IMG/VR virus record: IMGVR_UViG_2061766007_002278 | DNA from: an uncultured virus (IMG/VR IMGVR_UViG_2061766007_002278) | Taxonomy: Duplodnaviria > Heunggongvirae > Uroviricota > Caudoviricetes | Strand: one strand, 5' to 3' | Length of the DNA: 20,000 nt | Part shown: positions 8,953 through 19,888 of the stretch, one piece after another | How the letters are laid out: every line of letters starts with the position of its first letter | How positions within the stretch are numbered: position 1 is the first letter of the stretch | The notes under the pieces: model-generated | What the model was told of the DNA's origin: nothing | What the model saw: the letters and a program-made list of their open reading frames with translations, nothing else | Databases searched by the model: none | Program-made: the position numbers and the translations under genes

Positions 8953-9472
8953 NNNNNNNNNNNNNNNNNNNNNNNNNNNNNNNNNNNNNNNNNNNNNNNN
9001 NNNNNNNNNNNNNNNNNNNNNNNNNNNNNNNNNNNNNNNNNNNNNNNNNNNNNNNNNNNNNNNNNNNNNNNNNNNNNNNNNNNNNNNNNNNNNNNNNNNN
9101 NNNNNNNNNNNNNNNNNNNNNNNNNNNNNNNNNNNNNNNNNNNNNNNNNNNNNNNNNNNNNNNNNNNNNNNNNNNNNNNNNNNNNNNNNNNNNNNNNNNN
9201 NNNNNNNNNNNNNNNNNNNNNNNNNNNNNNNNNNNNNNNNNNNNNNNNNNNNNNNNNNNNNNNNNNNNNNNNNNNNNNNNNNNNNNNNNNNNNNNNNNNN
9301 NNNNNNNNNNNNNNNNNNNNNNNNNNNNNNNNNNNNNNNNNNNNNNNNNNNNNNNNNNNNNNNNNNNNNNNNNNNNNNNNNNNNNNNNNNNNNNNNNNNN
9401 NNNNNNNNNNNNNNNNNNNNNNNNNNNNNNNNNNNNNNNNNNNNNNNNNNNNNNNNNNNNNNNNNNNNNNNN

Positions 9473-10432: not shown

Positions 10433-11095
10433 ATGAATTGGGAGCAAATCACAAATGCTATCAGCGCGTTTTTTGATAAACCGGTAGTGGTTACACTTTC
10501 CGGTATTTTCTCTGGTGCGTTGATACTTTTCACAATATTCGCAAAGACTAGTTTTGGTCGCAAAGCCATTAATAAATTAACAGCGCTTTACAATTTAGGC
10601 GCAAGAACCGCCACACAAACGCTCAAAAAAGTCGAGGACGTAGAAAAACTCGCCACAGAAAAAATCAGCGAACTAGAGGCGGAAAACAGCCAAAAAATCG
10701 AAGAATTAAAGCAAGAATACGAAAAGAAAGTGTCCGTTCTTGTTTCTTTGTTTAATTTTTATATCGATGCGCTATTTGAAACGTTGGCCACTATTCCAAA
10801 CGTAAAATTACAAGCCAAGGTTCAAGAATTAAAAGAAAAGTATGAAGATAAAAAGGCTGCAATTACCCAAGTGGTCGGACTGGTATATCAAGATTTTACA
10901 TCCGCTCTAGAAAAGAGCCGTGAAGAAATCCGCAAAGAATACGATGAAAAACTCGAATTCGTAACAAACCAATTAAATCAACTAAAACTATTTATTAGTG
11001 AAATCAAGGAGGAGAATATAAATGGCGAAGAAAGAGAACAAAGCGAATCAAGCGCAGACTCCGACCGAATTGAAGAAGAAATACAAGAGGATTAG
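10433..11095 (+). CDS. Membrane-anchored coiled-coil protein (lysis-module position)
   Basis: GGAGG RBS, N-terminal hydrophobic segment VVVTLSGIFSGALILFTIFA, long charged helical remainder. Confidence 0.8.
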   Translation: MNWEQITNAISAFFDKPVVVTLSGIFSGALILFTIFAKTSFGRKAINKLTALYNLGARTATQTLKKVEDVEKLATEKISELEAENSQKIEELKQEYEKKVSVLVSLFNFYIDALFETLATIPNVKLQAKVQELKEKYEDKKAAITQVVGLVYQDFTSALEKSREEIRKEYDEKLEFVTNQLNQLKLFISEIKEENINGEEREQSESSADSDRIEEEIQED

Positions 11096-11372: not shown

Positions 11373-11806
11373 NNNNNNNNNNNNNNNNNNNNNNNNNNNN
11401 NNNNNNNNNNNNNNNNNNNNNNNNNNNNNNNNNNNNNNNNNNNNNNNNNNNNNNNNNNNNNNNNNNNNNNNNNNNNNNNNNNNNNNNNNNNNNNNNNNNN
11501 NNNNNNNNNNNNNNNNNNNNNNNNNNNNNNNNNNNNNNNNNNNNNNNNNNNNNNNNNNNNNNNNNNNNNNNNNNNNNNNNNNNNNNNNNNNNNNNNNNNN
11601 NNNNNNNNNNNNNNNNNNNNNNNNNNNNNNNNNNNNNNNNNNNNNNNNNNNNNNNNNNNNNNNNNNNNNNNNNNNNNNNNNNNNNNNNNNNNNNNNNNNN
11701 NNNNNNNNNNNNNNNNNNNNNNNNNNNNNNNNNNNNNNNNNNNNNNNNNNNNNNNNNNNNNNNNNNNNNNNNNNNNNNNNNNNNNNNNNNNNNNNNNNNN
11801 NNNNNN

Positions 11807-13400: not shown

Positions 13401-13427
13401 CGCTCTTTTGGTTGCATAACGCAAGCG
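13401..13427 (-). promoter_or_regulatory. Repeated promoter/operator motif, copy 1
   Basis: CGCTCTTTTGGTTGCATAACGCAAGCG, 25/27 identical to 18387-18413. Lies between a terminator and an operon start. Confidence 0.7.
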
Positions 13428-13480: not shown

Positions 13481-14303
13481 TTATTTAATCAGGTCGAAGA
13501 ATTGCGCTGGGTCAGGACCACCTACTAAACCCCACTCGGCGAACTTTTCAAATCCGCCGCATTGCTTTATATACGCTCGAGCANNNNNNNNNNNNNNNNG
13601 GTTTGTCGTCTATAAACTCGTCGCCTATAGCGCAGCAAAGGGTCACAGGCTTTTTGTATTTTTGCGCTTTAAGGAACGCGTAGATGTTAACACTAACATC
13701 GGCCTTGGAGAGGTCTTTGCCGTGTAAGCCGCCGCCTGTTACGGATTGGGCCATATCGGAGCCAAGTTTGCGGTTTGTCGCACCGCTATCTACATCGCTG
13801 CCACCGGTCCATTCTCCAAGCGGATTTATTTCTGCGTTTTCATATAAAGTATGTAAAATTAAACTTGGAGCATTGCTTTGACAAATAATAAAGCGGTTTG
13901 GATTCTCCGATAAAATATACTTGCCGTCTGTTGGATATCTTTTATAAATATCCTTCGCAATAATAGAAAGGCCAAGTTCCTCAGTCGTAATTGGCACACC
14001 TTTGAATATACCATTATCGCCGCAGCGGAAGTGGCCTGCTTGGTTTCCGGCCAAGTGTGGGTCCTGTGGCACGCAGATATATTTTATCTTATCGATTCCG
14101 GCTAATCGCCAGACGATTCCTTTTACGATTGGCTTTGAAATATGGTAAGACGACTCAACAATCACAGTCGCAAAGCCGTGGCCTATTAAAACCTCAACGG
14201 CAATTTTAGGATTTGAAACGCAAGCGTAGGCATGGTCTACAATAGCGCCAGCGATTCTATCTGCCACCTTGTCTGGGTGGCTTGGGTTTACACATTCATA
14301 CAT
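13481..14303 (-). CDS. metK: S-adenosylmethionine synthetase (compact phage-type MetK, ~273 aa)
   Basis: ECVNPSHPDKVADRI, GDNG, DGK, GGSDVDSGATNRKL, GGGLHGKDLSKADVS motifs. True C-terminus after the gap is ARAYIKQCGGFEKFAEWGL...LIK* (TAA 13481-13483). Confidence 0.92.
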
Positions 14304-17884: not shown

Positions 17885-18052
17885 CTATCTGCACACCTTC
17901 CTTTCCGCTTTTTCGATGATGTCGCTTGGAATTTCGTCCAAGACTCTCTTGATTATTTCTTCGAGGTTGTCATTGCGCCAATCGGCGAGCGTATGAATTG
18001 CGCCATACAAGCCATCCTCTTTGATTAATTGCTTCGCTTCTTTCTTGGTCAT
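17885..18052 (-). CDS. Small hypothetical protein (55 aa, not in ORF track)
   Basis: AAGGAGG RBS, MTKKEAKQLIKEDGLYGAIHTLADW...KVCR*. Confidence 0.75.
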   Translation of the reverse strand: MTKKEAKQLIKEDGLYGAIHTLADWRNDNLEEIIKRVLDEIPSDIIEKAERKVCR

Positions 18053-18066
18053 GTTATATCCTCCTT

Positions 18067-18357
18067 TTATTCCATGAATTTGAAGCCAACAAAGTCGGTG
18101 TAATATTTGCGGCCGTCCAAAACTATGATGTCGGAAACGCTCAAGGAGTGTCCTTTGAAGTCTTCTGGTCGGTCAAGATTGAATTTCTCATATAATACGT
18201 GACAAGCGGTCATATAACTATATTCGTCGGTAATTTCTCCTTCGTAGACCTTTTCGTAATGTTCAATGTTTAATCCGTGTTTTACGGCCCAACCATAACT
18301 GTTGAATCCGTAATCTCCGATGTGCTTTCTTTTCAATTGTAAGATTTCATATTTCAT
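18067..18357 (-). CDS. YodL-like domain protein (stand-alone)
   Basis: YEILQLK...YEKVYEG...LYEKFNLDRPEDFKGHSLSVSDIIVL...YYTDFVGF matches the YodL signature. GGAGG RBS. Confidence 0.88.
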   Translation of the reverse strand: MKYEILQLKRKHIGDYGFNSYGWAVKHGLNIEHYEKVYEGEITDEYSYMTACHVLYEKFNLDRPEDFKGHSLSVSDIIVLDGRKYYTDFVGFKFME

Positions 18358-18386
18358 GTGCCATATCCTCCCGGCATATATATTAA

Positions 18387-18413
18387 CGCTCTTTCGGTTG
18401 CATAAAGCAAGCG
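18387..18413 (-). promoter_or_regulatory. Repeated promoter/operator motif, copy 2
   Basis: CGCTCTTTCGGTTGCATAAAGCAAGCG. On minus it reads TTGCTT-17 nt-GTTAAT, with an AT-rich upstream tract. Confidence 0.7.
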
Positions 18414-18430
18414 CTATATTTAAATAAAAT

Positions 18431-18458
18431 AAAAAAAGACTCGTTAACGGTCGAGTCT
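18431..18458 (-). terminator. Rho-independent terminator
   Basis: Perfect AGACTCG/CGAGTCT stem followed by a T run on minus. Confidence 0.85.
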
Positions 18459-18620
18459 ATTTTGATTAAGCAAACCTTTATTAGCATCAACAGCGTGGCA
18501 AGGGGAAGCCTTAATCTGGGTAATCACTATCACGCACATTAACTGAATATTAATTATGTGACACCATCTGGAGGATTTTGGCACGCGCGTTTTGGCGATA
18601 TCGATTCCGTTCTTTCTACC
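18431..18620 (-). ncRNA. Candidate ~190-nt small RNA
   Basis: Bounded by its own promoter and terminator, with no RBS-led ORF on minus. Internal stems GCGTG.CAA/TTG.CACGC and CACAT/ATGTG, and C-rich tracts ATCCTCC and TTCCCCTT. Confidence 0.55.
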
Positions 18621-18624
18621 TATA

Positions 18625-18653
18625 AATATATATGTAAACGATTAGGATATCAA
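18625..18653 (-). promoter_or_regulatory. Sigma70/SigA-type promoter
   Basis: TTGATA (18653-18648), 17-nt spacer, TATATT (18630-18625). Confidence 0.65.
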
Positions 18654-19888
18654 TCAAGAACTGATAAAAATTCCTGTGGGATTTCTTGCTTTTCGCCATC
18701 GCGGATTAAATAGCAGCCGTCTTTGGTTCCCTTCCATTTTAGATAACGCTTGACTATGACATCAGCATATCTTGGGTCGATTTCCGCCGTATAGCAGGCT
18801 CTGCCGGCTTCTTCGCAGGCGATTAAAGTAGAACCCGACCCACCAAACAAATCAACGCACAAATCGCCTTTTTTGCTGCCTTCTTGGATTAGGTAACCCA
18901 AAAGGTCGAGCGGCTTCATGGTTGGATGTTCTAAAGAGCGGGTTGGTCTGTCGTAATTAAGAACAGTAGAAAGGTCGCGGCGGCCGGTAGTATAGTGGGC
19001 AGCGCCTTCTTTCCATCCGACCCAGATTGGTTCGTTTTGGTAATGCGCCCAGCCGTGGCCAAGAACAATTGAATTTTTAATCCACTGCCATGTTTGATGC
19101 CATTTAGCACCGGCTTTTTCTAAAGCAAGACGGAAATTGGTCTCTTGGCTATCGCTATGGAACACAAACACATTTGCTCCGGGTTTTGCGTTTTCGAGCG
19201 AGTTGTGAAAAGCCTTAAATAAAAAGTCTTTAAAATCATCGTCGCTCTTCTTGTCGTTTTGAATTTTTAAAGCATCTGCTGTTTTGCCTACATAGTCGAC
19301 ATTATATGGTGGGTCAGTAAGAACGAAGTCGGCCTGCTCGCCATTCATTAAAAGGTCCACATTTTCTCTTTTGGTAGAATCGCCGCAAATCAAACGGTGG
19401 TTTCCTAATATATAAAGGTCGCCAAGTTTAGATTCAGGTGTTTCCGTTAGAAATACATCTTCATCAAAGTCGTCGTCAGTAACCTCGGGTTCATCTTCAG
19501 GGAGTAATTCCGTGAAGCCTAAAGCATCAAGGTCAAATTCATCTTCTAACGCTTTTAGTTCTTCATCTAAAATATCAAAATCCCATGCAGATAGTTCCGC
19601 ACTTCTATTATGGGTCAAAGCGTAGGCCTTGCGTTGCTCATCGGTAAGGTGGTCCAAGCGGATGCAAGGCACCTCTGTATAACCGAGTTCCTTTAAGGCC
19701 AATAGACGGCCGTGTCCCTCAACGATTATATTTTTATCGCCCCAGATACCAATGGGGTCACACATTCCAAATTCCTCGATTGACTTTTTGATTACGGCTA
19801 CATCGACGGCCTTGTGTTGGCGCGCGTTCTTTTCGTAGGGTGTAAGTGAGTCAATTGGAAGATTCACAATTGTAAGATTAGTTTCCAT
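18650..19888 (-). CDS. ParB/Srx N-terminal domain fused to N6-adenine/N4-cytosine DNA methyltransferase (beta order)
   Basis: N-terminal LTPYEKNAR...IIVEGHGRLLALKELG. Catalytic TDPPY precedes HPTMKP and SAM-binding DLFGGSGST. Confidence 0.93.
   Translation of the reverse strand: METNLTIVNLPIDSLTPYEKNARQHKAVDVAVIKKSIEEFGMCDPIGIWGDKNIIVEGHGRLLALKELGYTEVPCIRLDHLTDEQRKAYALTHNRSAELSAWDFDILDEELKALEDEFDLDALGFTELLPEDEPEVTDDDFDEDVFLTETPESKLGDLYILGNHRLICGDSTKRENVDLLMNGEQADFVLTDPPYNVDYVGKTADALKIQNDKKSDDDFKDFLFKAFHNSLENAKPGANVFVFHSDSQETNFRLALEKAGAKWHQTWQWIKNSIVLGHGWAHYQNEPIWVGWKEGAAHYTTGRRDLSTVLNYDRPTRSLEHPTMKPLDLLGYLIQEGSKKGDLCVDLFGGSGSTLIACEEAGRACYTAEIDPRYADVIVKRYLKWKGTKDGCYLIRDGEKQEIPQEFLSVLD

What the first reader, a model, noticed from the sequence alone, without database searches (positions are those of the whole stretch)
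18355..18653. Candidate phage sRNA complementary to the RBS/start of the adjacent YodL-like gene
Seen: a minus-strand unit with its own promoter (TTGATA-17-TATATT), ~190 non-coding nt and a strong terminator. It contains GTGCCAAAATCCTCC (18584-18570). The next gene's mRNA reads GGAGGATATGGCAC-ATG (18371-18358), so 13 bp can form around a small internal loop. The pairing covers the SD and the gene-specific spacer, not only the generic SD. The yodL-like gene has its own promoter after the terminator, so pairing would be in trans. Known: B. subtilis YodL perturbs MreB-dependent cell shape when misexpressed. Inference: an RNA-silenced early/toxic gene switch, akin to a type I antitoxin or an RNA-based timing or immunity control.
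Basis: partly seen in the sequence, partly recalled or inferred. Interest (0 to 1): 0.78.

Follow-up and report, generated by a model that had tools for sequence, protein, structure and literature searches.

The report
Conserved phage small RNA with anti-ribosome-site loop
The stretch between a DNA methylase gene and a YodL-like gene of this rumen phage encodes a folded non-coding RNA that recurs in at least three phage lineages; one of its loops can cover the ribosome-binding site of the neighbouring gene, but that this gene is its real target is not proven.

Summary

New here: the unit belongs to a conserved structured RNA family that Rfam 15 does not match. I found a 96%-identical relative (L098), a truncated one (L100) and two distant ones (L179, L195). 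Three helices are supported by compensatory changes: 7 of 22 pairs changed on both sides and 95.5% of cells paired, against 27-48% when the partners are slid. A CU-rich, anti-Shine-Dalgarno-like motif (AUYCUC) is conserved inside an otherwise variable apical region.

Evidence for pairing with the yodL-like start site. It ranks 1 of 36 start regions in the window. With the anti-SD motif held fixed, 4 of 1000 flank shuffles reach its score. L098 carries a change that adds a pair.

Evidence against. If the target is not fixed beforehand, 13 of 100 shuffles do as well. In L179 and L195 the downstream gene is different and is not matched. The RNA accompanies only 2 of 177 YodL loci. No RNA reads cover it.

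In L195 the same loop is a perfect 12-nt complement of the 5' UTR and SD of a cI-like repressor. Verdict: a real, new RNA family; an anti-RBS role is plausible (about 0.4) but unproven.

The parts
18650..19888 (-). Upstream gene: ParB-like domain fused to an N6/N4 DNA methyltransferase (412 aa). Its last codons overlap the -35 box of the RNA promoter.
   Evidence: Pfam PF01555, E 1.8e-23. phrog_498, E 1.3e-145, and ParB-like phrogs.
18625..18653 (-). Sigma-A-type promoter-like site TTGATA-17-TATATT. The inferred start is about 18618-18617.
   Evidence: Matches 10 of 12 consensus positions. Identical in L098. L179 has TTGATA-18-TG-TATACT at the matching place, the end of its methylase gene. L195 has none. 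The start position is inferred, not measured.
18460..18618 (-). Conserved structured RNA core. P1 is 18608-18604 with 18524-18519. P2 is 18602-18597 with 18531-18526. P3 is 18516-18510 with 18470-18464. P3b is 18503-18500 with 18478-18475.
   Evidence: Alignment A4. Pair counts: 95.5% of cells paired, 7 of 22 pairs changed on both sides, and 27-48% paired in slid controls. RNAalifold predicts nearly the same structure on its own, with 6 of 22 compensatory pairs. The covariance model R1 scores 157.8 bits here.
18570..18584 (-). Proposed seed GUGCCAAAAUCCUCC, inside the variable apical region of the 5' domain. It contains the family-conserved motif AUCCUCC (18576-18570).
   Evidence: Sequence read. 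CUCC is unpaired with probability 0.97-0.99. The AUYCUC motif aligns in window, L098, L179 and L195. L098 has U at 18577, which gives 14 pairs and -22.2 kcal/mol.
18430..18458 (-). Intrinsic terminator: a 7-bp stem, an 8-nt loop and a U run.
   Evidence: L100 keeps the hairpin through a change on both strands (GACUCG/CGAGUC becomes GACCCG/CGGGUC). L179 has a 9-pair terminator at the same place.
18387..18413 (-). Conserved motif after the terminator: CGCTTGC-N3-ATGCAACC-N-AAAGAGCG, followed 10 nt later by TGCC. A candidate phage-specific promoter or operator of the yodL-like gene cluster.
   Evidence: Two copies in the window, 18413..18389 and 13427..13403, each just after a terminator; 0 of 200 shuffles gave two matches. 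Also present in L098, L100 and L179. A -10-like box is not conserved in L179. The function is inferred.
18358..18371 (-). Proposed target GGAGGAUAUGGCAC: the SD plus the whole spacer of the yodL-like gene.
   Evidence: Ranks 1 of 36 start regions. A wider duplex of 21 pairs including G-U pairs reaches -26.7 kcal/mol.
18067..18357 (-). YodL-like gene (96 aa).
   Evidence: Pfam PF14191, E 2.8e-19, 70.4 bits against a cut-off of 24.

Best explanation
What is shown. The region 18618..18430 (minus strand) is a conserved, folded, non-coding RNA of a family that Rfam 15 does not match. It has a closed 5' domain (helices P1 and P2) whose tip varies between phages but always carries a CU-rich, anti-Shine-Dalgarno-like motif. 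A second hairpin (P3, P3b) has conserved internal-loop bases.

What is inferred from sequence. In this phage the RNA has its own sigma-A-type promoter and an intrinsic terminator, which would give an RNA of about 185-190 nt.

Proposed mechanism, not shown. The apical loop and its 5' flank (GUGCCAAAAUCCUCC) pair with the SD and spacer of the next gene, the YodL-like gene. YodL in B. subtilis interacts genetically with MreB. The pairing would block ribosome binding. It could act in trans, from the terminated RNA on transcripts that start after the terminator. It could also act in cis, on any transcript that reads through the terminator. The effect would be to keep a cell-shape-perturbing early protein off until the RNA is outnumbered or displaced.
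For: Conserved RNA.
- Homologues are L098 (IGR 94.7% identical over 304 nt), L100 (partial), L179 and L195.
- The structure is supported by compensatory changes.
- R1 hits have E values of 5e-23 to 3e-33.
- Two lineages have a promoter and three have a terminator.

Pairing with the yodL-like start site.
- Core duplex -19.9 kcal/mol, with low opening costs and an exposed CUCC loop.
- Rank 1 of 36 start regions, score 36.5 against 26.0 for the next.
- With the anti-SD motif fixed, 4 of 1000 flank shuffles reach the score; for L098, 1 of 1000.
- None of the 16 window-versus-L098 differences in the IGR falls on a paired seed base, and the one inside the internal loop adds a pair.
- The read-through RNA folds with this helix in both the MFE and the centroid structure.

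Support from another family member. The L195 loop CUCUUUUUUGCC is a perfect 12-nt complement of the start of the cI-like repressor mRNA. Shuffles reach it 0 of 1000 times with the target fixed and 0 of 100 times as best of 62.

YodL background. The YodL-MreB link comes from passages in PMC5512222 and PMC6965359.
Against: - The target was chosen after the match was seen. With any of 36 start regions allowed, 13 of 100 flank shuffles, 6 of 100 full shuffles and 57 of 100 RNAduplex shuffles do as well.
- Neighbour targeting is not a family trait. In L179 the neighbour ranks 9-16 of 62 and 197 of 1000 shuffles do as well. In L195 it ranks 54-60 of 62 and 532 of 1000 shuffles do as well.
- The RNA is absent from 175 of 177 YodL loci.
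- One DNA haplotype (run X4) changes the base before the ATG from C to G, which breaks the end pair. Its partner base lies at the contig end and was not seen.
- The L100 spacer differs, and its RNA 5' half is missing because the contig ends there.
- The seed's GUGCCA is also used in a local hairpin of the RNA itself.
- Predicted folding is no more stable than that of shuffled sequence (z -1.35 to +0.42).
- There is no transcript evidence. The one metatranscriptome laid has contigs on the yodL-like gene only.
Confidence: 0.4

Rival explanations
1. A cis-acting leader rather than a base-pairing repressor. The folded RNA would be a riboswitch-like sensor, or an antitermination element of the put type, that decides whether RNA polymerase passes the terminator into the downstream early genes. 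The match to the yodL-like start site would then be coincidental.
For: - The layout promoter, structured RNA of about 160 nt with conserved junction and internal-loop bases, intrinsic terminator, then genes recurs in window, L098, L100 and L179.
- The downstream genes differ while the scaffold is conserved.
- In L195 the RNA lies inside the cro-side early operon with no promoter of its own.
- No canonical promoter for the yodL-like gene was listed.
- The 5' strand of the terminator is conserved between window and L179 while the 3' strand differs.
Against: - By eye I saw no alternative antiterminator pairing. This was not tested systematically.
- L195 has no terminator after the RNA.
- A conserved motif after the terminator, also present at a second terminator that has no RNA, looks more like a separate start signal.
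- This reading does not explain the conserved CU-rich motif or the 12-nt match to the repressor mRNA in L195.
- No Rfam riboswitch or leader model matches.
- The resemblance to HK022 put is recalled from memory, not tested.
Confidence: 0.25
2. A trans-acting small RNA whose real targets lie elsewhere. These could be host mRNAs, other phage genes, or SD sequences in general (an anti-SD mimic or sponge). The yodL-like match would be a by-product of carrying an anti-SD motif.
For: - The conserved part of the seed is only AUYCUC, which is anti-SD-like.
- The window RNA pairs nearly as well with other start regions under RNAduplex, tying with the gene at 10433.
- The best-of-all controls are not significant for the window.
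- The strongest specific match in the family is to a non-adjacent gene, the cI-like gene in L195.
- The conserved single-stranded 5' end GAAAGAAC could be a second seed.
Against: - Under the loop-restricted score the yodL-like start region stands clearly apart from the other 35 (36.5 against 26.0).
- L098 variation spares the seed and strengthens it.
- No complement of the conserved 5' end exists in the window, G004 or G005 other than the RNA gene itself.
- The host genome is unknown, so host targets could not be searched.
Confidence: 0.2
3. No dedicated RNA function. The stretch would be the 3' untranslated end of the methylase operon plus a module boundary, and the complementarity would be chance.
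For: - Promoter-like and terminator-like sites in this region are not more frequent than in shuffles (7 against 5.9, and 6 against 3.1).
- Assemblies from several metagenomes break at about 18585-18615, and differences from L098 cluster there, as expected at a mosaic junction.
- Folding energies are ordinary.
Against: - Blocks of sequence and three helices with compensatory changes are conserved between phages whose methylases are only 66% identical, and in a phage with a different gene context.
- Slid controls fall to 27-48% paired.
Confidence: 0.07

Closest known systems
c4 antisense RNA of phages P1/P7 (immI operon c4-icd-ant)
   Same: A small RNA encoded upstream of its target, on the same strand and in the same transcription direction. 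It represses the following genes by base pairing, and the first of those genes (icd) is a host cell-cycle inhibitor. Source: passages of PMC8198154 and the abstract of PMC11897509 in the search listing. The window has the same layout, and its downstream gene also acts on the cytoskeleton.
   Different: - No match to any Rfam family, at the gathering score over the whole window or near it in this region. That Rfam holds a C4 model is recalled, not checked.
- The host group differs: Firmicutes-type rumen phages.
- The window RNA has its own terminator between RNA and target.
- The scaffold is about 160 nt with two domains.
- Processing of c4 from the operon transcript is recalled and was not tested here.
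sar RNA of P22, OOP and aQ RNAs of lambda
   Same: Phage RNAs that repress one phage regulatory gene by pairing; sar does so at the translation start. Source: review PMC12197685, section 2 of the paper, read in full.
   Different: Those are cis-antisense RNAs transcribed from the opposite strand of their target. Here the RNA and the candidate target are on the same strand, 200 nt apart, with only 13-14 pairs.
C-rich-loop small RNAs of Firmicutes (RsaE/RoxS type)
   Same: Pyrimidine-rich motifs exposed in loops that pair with SD sequences. The window RNA has CUCC in a loop and a second motif, CUUCCCCUU, in P3.
   Different: The comparison is recalled from memory. No Rfam family, this one included if Rfam holds it, reached the gathering score. 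The motifs here are CU-rich rather than runs of C. The RNA is phage-borne.
DicF of the Qin prophage
   Same: A prophage small RNA tied to host cell division and shape control. Source: review PMC12197685, section 3 of the paper.
   Different: DicF represses a host gene (ftsZ). Here the candidate target is the phage's own shape-modifying gene.

Membership tests
Any Rfam 15 family | Covariance-model score at or above the family's gathering score. | tested here: not met
   There were 0 matches in the whole window. The best weak match in 18300-18720 scores 16 bits against a gathering score of 100. L179 and L195 gave only one chance-level match, to a microRNA model.
P1/P7 c4-type same-strand antisense RNA | RNA gene upstream of its target and on the same strand, with complementarity over the RBS of the first downstream gene. 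| tested here: inconclusive
   Met in the window and L098. Not met for the first downstream gene in L179 (197 of 1000) or L195 (532 of 1000).
P1/P7 c4-type same-strand antisense RNA | Sequence and structure homology to c4. | tested here: not met
   No Rfam family at all reached its gathering score. That Rfam holds a C4 model is recalled, not checked.
Type I toxin-antitoxin | The toxin is a very small hydrophobic, membrane-active peptide, and the antitoxin RNA overlaps it or is divergently encoded. | tested here: not met
   The protein has 96 aa, is rich in charged residues and belongs to Pfam YodL. The RNA is tandem on the same strand. No transmembrane prediction was run; hydrophobicity was judged from the printed sequence.
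Type I toxin-antitoxin | The protein is toxic and the RNA neutralises it. | not testable with these tools
   Only literature on B. subtilis YodL and MreB is available.
Riboswitch or attenuator leader | A conserved aptamer-like fold followed by a terminator, with a mutually exclusive antiterminator. | tested here: inconclusive
   A fold plus terminator is present in window, L100 and L179. No antiterminator was seen by eye. L195 lacks a terminator.
YodL-like protein (PF14191), for the downstream gene | Pfam score above the gathering score over the full domain. | tested here: met
   70.4 bits against 24, covering residues 2-93 of 96.
Trans-acting small RNA (generic) | A discrete transcript with defined 5' and 3' ends. 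| not testable with these tools
   The one RNA run laid is kept as contigs. It covers 18040-18368 only, which says nothing about the RNA region.

The most novel reading that the evidence does not exclude
A re-targetable phage small-RNA platform. A conserved two-domain scaffold would display a short variable anti-RBS seed built around a fixed anti-SD core, and different phages would have re-aimed that seed at different key genes of their own. In this phage the target would be the MreB-directed YodL-like protein. In the L195 phage it would be the cI-like repressor, making the RNA an RNA anti-repressor in the lysis-lysogeny switch.
Probability: 0.25. Interest if true: 0.8.

Novelty: new variant of a known kind. 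Interest (0 to 1): 0.6.

Why it matters
Phage-encoded regulatory RNAs are known mostly from E. coli and Vibrio phages (review PMC12197685, the two sections read). This would add a structured RNA family from phages of uncultured rumen Firmicutes, supported by covariation.

If the seed idea holds, it would show how a phage times a cytoskeleton-perturbing early protein. In a relative, it would show how a phage silences its own repressor with an RNA. The conserved scaffold also suggests an unknown protein or ribosome partner.

The claim is directly testable with a reporter and compensatory mutations.

Tried and rejected
- Transcript evidence. The metatranscriptome run X20 has contigs over 18040-18368 only and none over the RNA. 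Run X18 (guessed to be RNA) covers only the flanks. These are contigs at low depth, so this is no evidence either way.
- Whole genome. None is held for the window.
- GenBank phages. No DNA match for the window region, the L195 RNA or the L179 RNA, apart from a 37-nt chance match to Bacillus phage W.Ph..
- Earlier notes of this scan. None exist.
- False leads from pattern scans. L178 lies inside an 886-aa ORF. L181-L193 are coding regions of unrelated contigs.
- More family members. None among 151 genomes of one order with the covariance model. None among 401 genomes of one class with a conserved-block pattern. None in G001-G003. Only two IMG/VR contigs match. No relative of the L195 repressor other than itself. 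These were samples, so the family is not shown to be absent.
- Conserved 5' end as a seed. No complement in the window, G004 or G005 other than the RNA gene itself.
- G004 candidate targets. A 203-aa gene with an interrupted 18-pair match has no Pfam family and sits inside an operon. A 92-aa gene gave the best score. Neither was pursued further.
- Unrestricted RNAduplex. It allows very large loops and is a poor statistic. It gave a tie with the gene at 10433 and a non-significant best-of-all result for the window.
- Small-ORF reading of the stretch. Rejected, because L098 has a frameshift.
- L099 and L101. Their YodL is 57-63% identical, but the upstream gene is divergent and there is no RNA homologue.

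Full report
**1. What is in the window.**
On the minus strand a ParB-like/N6-N4 DNA methyltransferase gene (19888..18650) is followed by 292 non-coding bases and then a 96-aa gene. That gene is a clear member of Pfam YodL (PF14191, E 2.8e-19).

- The promoter-like site TTGATA-17-TATATT lies at 18653..18625 (10 of 12).
- A 7-bp terminator hairpin with a U run lies at 18458..18437.
- GTGCCAAAATCCTCC lies at 18584..18570.
- Its partner GGAGGATATGGCAC lies at 18371..18358, directly before the ATG.

The window holds no tRNA and reaches no Rfam gathering score. A permissive Rfam scan of the region gives only chance-level matches. The only ORF in the stretch (46 aa, GTG start, no SD) is frameshifted in the closest relative.

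No whole genome is held for the window. The DNA occurs in ruminant gut metagenomes.

**2. The RNA is conserved and folded. This is the main new result.**
A metagenome contig, L098, is 95.9% identical over 1474 nt and carries the whole intergenic region at 94.7%. L100 (73% identical) begins inside the RNA. It keeps the terminator through a change on both strands.

Searching with the methylase found an IMG/VR phage, L179, whose methylase is 66% identical. It has a recognisable homologue of the RNA at the same place, with its own promoter-like site (TTGATA-18-TG-TATACT) and terminator. Its next gene is not yodL-like (no Pfam family above cut-off).

A pattern built from two conserved blocks found a fourth member, L195. 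There the RNA lies in a different context: after a divergent cI-like/cro-like HTH pair and a 78-aa ORF, and before a NUMOD4-HNH endonuclease gene. It has no promoter or terminator of its own.

The four sequences align with these invariant blocks:
- GAAAGAACGGAAU at the 5' end;
- UUACCCAG at a junction;
- GGYU.C.CC and AAGGUUUGC inside the second hairpin.

For a structure that I proposed, 95.5% of cells are paired and 7 of 22 pairs changed on both sides. Sliding the partners by 1-3 columns drops pairing to 27-48%. RNAalifold, run independently on the same alignment, returns nearly the same helices, with 6 of 22 compensatory pairs. The MFE fold of L195 alone also recovers P1, P2 and P3.

Caveats. 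There are only three independent lineages, I derived the structure from these same sequences, and single-sequence folding energies are not better than shuffles.

The family is rare in what I could search.
- Model R1 hits only these loci among 180 sources.
- It found nothing in 151 genomes of one order.
- A conserved-block pattern found nothing in 401 genomes of one class.
- Only two IMG/VR contigs match.
- GenBank phages gave nothing.

**3. The anti-SD motif.**
Inside the otherwise variable tip of the 5' domain one short motif aligns in all members: AUCCUCC (window, L098), AUUCUCC (L179) and AUUCUCU (L195). In the window the CUCC is in a hairpin loop, unpaired with probability 0.97-0.99. So a pyrimidine-rich, anti-SD-like loop is a family feature, while its flanks are free to vary.

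**4. Does it pair with the yodL-like start site?**

For:
- The core duplex is -19.9 kcal/mol, with opening costs of 3.8 (RNA) and 1.9-5.4 (mRNA) kcal/mol.
- A wider duplex reaches 21 pairs and -26.7 kcal/mol.
- With a score that forbids large loops, the yodL-like start region ranks 1 of 36 candidates in the window, at 36.5 against 26.0 for the runner-up.
- With the anti-SD motif fixed and only the flanks shuffled, 4 of 1000 shuffles reach the score; for L098, 1 of 1000.
- The 16 differences between window and L098 in this region cluster in the RNA's 5' half. None falls on a paired seed base, and the single change in the internal loop (A to U at 18577) adds a pair (14 pairs, -22.2 kcal/mol). 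The same haplotype is seen in DNA run X7.

Against:
- The neighbour was picked after the match was seen. If any start region may be the target, 13 of 100 flank shuffles, 6 of 100 full shuffles and 57 of 100 RNAduplex shuffles do as well. Unrestricted RNAduplex gives a tie with another gene.
- The first downstream gene is not matched in L179 (rank 9-16 of 62; 197 of 1000) or in L195 (rank 54-60 of 62; 532 of 1000).
- Only 2 of 177 YodL loci (L098, L100) have the RNA.
- DNA run X4 has G instead of C just before the ATG, which removes the end pair unless its partner also changed. The contig ends one base past that partner.
- The L100 spacer differs, and its seed lies beyond the contig end.
- No RNA reads cover the region.

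**5. A parallel in L195.**
The L195 loop sequence CUCUUUUUUGCC (L195 1245-1256) is a perfect 12-nt complement of GGCAAAAAAGAG (L195 603-592, minus strand). That sequence is the first bases and the SD of the cI-like HTH_3 repressor mRNA, as predicted from a TTGCCA-16-TATAAT promoter.

Shuffles reach this match 0 of 1000 times with the target fixed, 0 of 100 times as best of 62 start regions, and 3 of 300 times for a 12-nt perfect match. For L179 the best-of-62 result is 7 of 100, with no obviously meaningful gene.

Taken together the three best-of-all results (13/100, 7/100, 0/100) hint that the variable tip is a pairing seed aimed at a phage start site. This is suggestive, not proof, and I tried several statistics.

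**6. Cis or trans.**
The region after the terminator carries a conserved motif: TTGC-N5-GCARCC-N-AAAGAGCG, then TGCC 10 nt later. It occurs twice in the window, each time right after a terminator (18413..18389 and 13427..13403). It also occurs in L098, L100 and L179 but not in G005.

It may be a phage-specific promoter or an operator. It is not a canonical sigma-A promoter, and its -10-like part is not conserved in L179.

If transcription instead reads through the terminator, the predicted MFE and centroid folds of the read-through RNA contain the seed-to-SD helix, so the same pairing would work in cis. The sequence cannot decide between the two.

**7. Comparison with known systems.**
The layout is closest to the P1/P7 immI operon. 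There the c4 antisense RNA is encoded in one operon with the genes it helps to repress, and the next gene, icd, blocks host cell division (PMC8198154 passages; PMC11897509 abstract in the listing). That c4 lies upstream on the same strand is recalled. It is not a member of that family, since no Rfam model matches.

It differs from cis-antisense phage RNAs such as sar, OOP and aQ (PMC12197685 section 2) and from DicF, which targets a host gene (same review, section 3).

It is not a type I toxin-antitoxin pair. The protein is a 96-aa soluble-looking YodL-family protein and the RNA is tandem rather than overlapping.

YodL's genetic link to MreB, and the spread of the YodL domain in mobile elements of Firmicutes, come from passages in PMC5512222 and PMC6965359. 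The primary paper (Duan et al. 2016) was not read. Resemblances to RsaE/RoxS and to HK022 put are recalled only.

I did not find this RNA described. That rests on Rfam 15 and on two sections of one 2025 review. No literature search can be made by sequence.

**8. Verdict.**
The unit is very likely a genuine, conserved, structured phage RNA of a new family (about 0.85). That it works by covering ribosome-binding sites is the best single mechanism, and the yodL-like gene is the best candidate target in this phage. I put that specific claim at about 0.4, because it fails to generalise to relatives and is only borderline after correction for choice of target.

Noticed in passing
window 13403-13427 (-) and 18389-18413 (-); also L098 288-311, L100 about 68-95, L179 2944-2967: A repeated motif of about 40 nt, TTGC-N5-GCARCC-N-AAAGAGCG then TGCC 10 nt later, lies directly after intrinsic terminators and before gene starts. 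It occurs twice in the window, and none of 200 shuffles gave two matches. It may be a phage-specific promoter or an operator.
   Followed up: partly
L195 1245-1256 (+) against L195 592-603 (-): The RNA loop of a distant family member is a perfect 12-nt complement of the 5' UTR and SD of that phage's cI-like HTH_3 repressor, which is divergent from a cro-like gene. This could be an RNA anti-repressor.
   Followed up: partly
window about 18585-18615: Contigs from several independent metagenome assemblies (runs X4 and X7) end here, and differences from L098 cluster in the RNA's 5' half. This suggests a strain-variable spot or a module junction.
   Followed up: no
window 18325-18360: The first about 36 nt of the yodL-like gene match high-depth contigs of otherwise unrelated sequence in three runs (records 5, 8 and 11). 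The N-terminal coding stretch is therefore shared with other elements at the DNA level.
   Followed up: no
window 13548-14303 (-): A 251-aa protein matches only the N-terminal domain of S-adenosylmethionine synthetase (PF00438, E 1e-08) and phrog_1569. It may be a phage SAM-related enzyme. The same early cluster also encodes a methylase.
   Followed up: no
L195 1347-1481: About 135 further non-coding nt with hairpin-like repeats lie between the RNA and a NUMOD4-HNH homing-endonuclease gene. No terminator is visible.
   Followed up: no
window, 16 runs of N (for example 8953-9472 and 11373-11806): 1335 bases of the window are masked as N. Gene calls in those parts are therefore incomplete.
   Followed up: no
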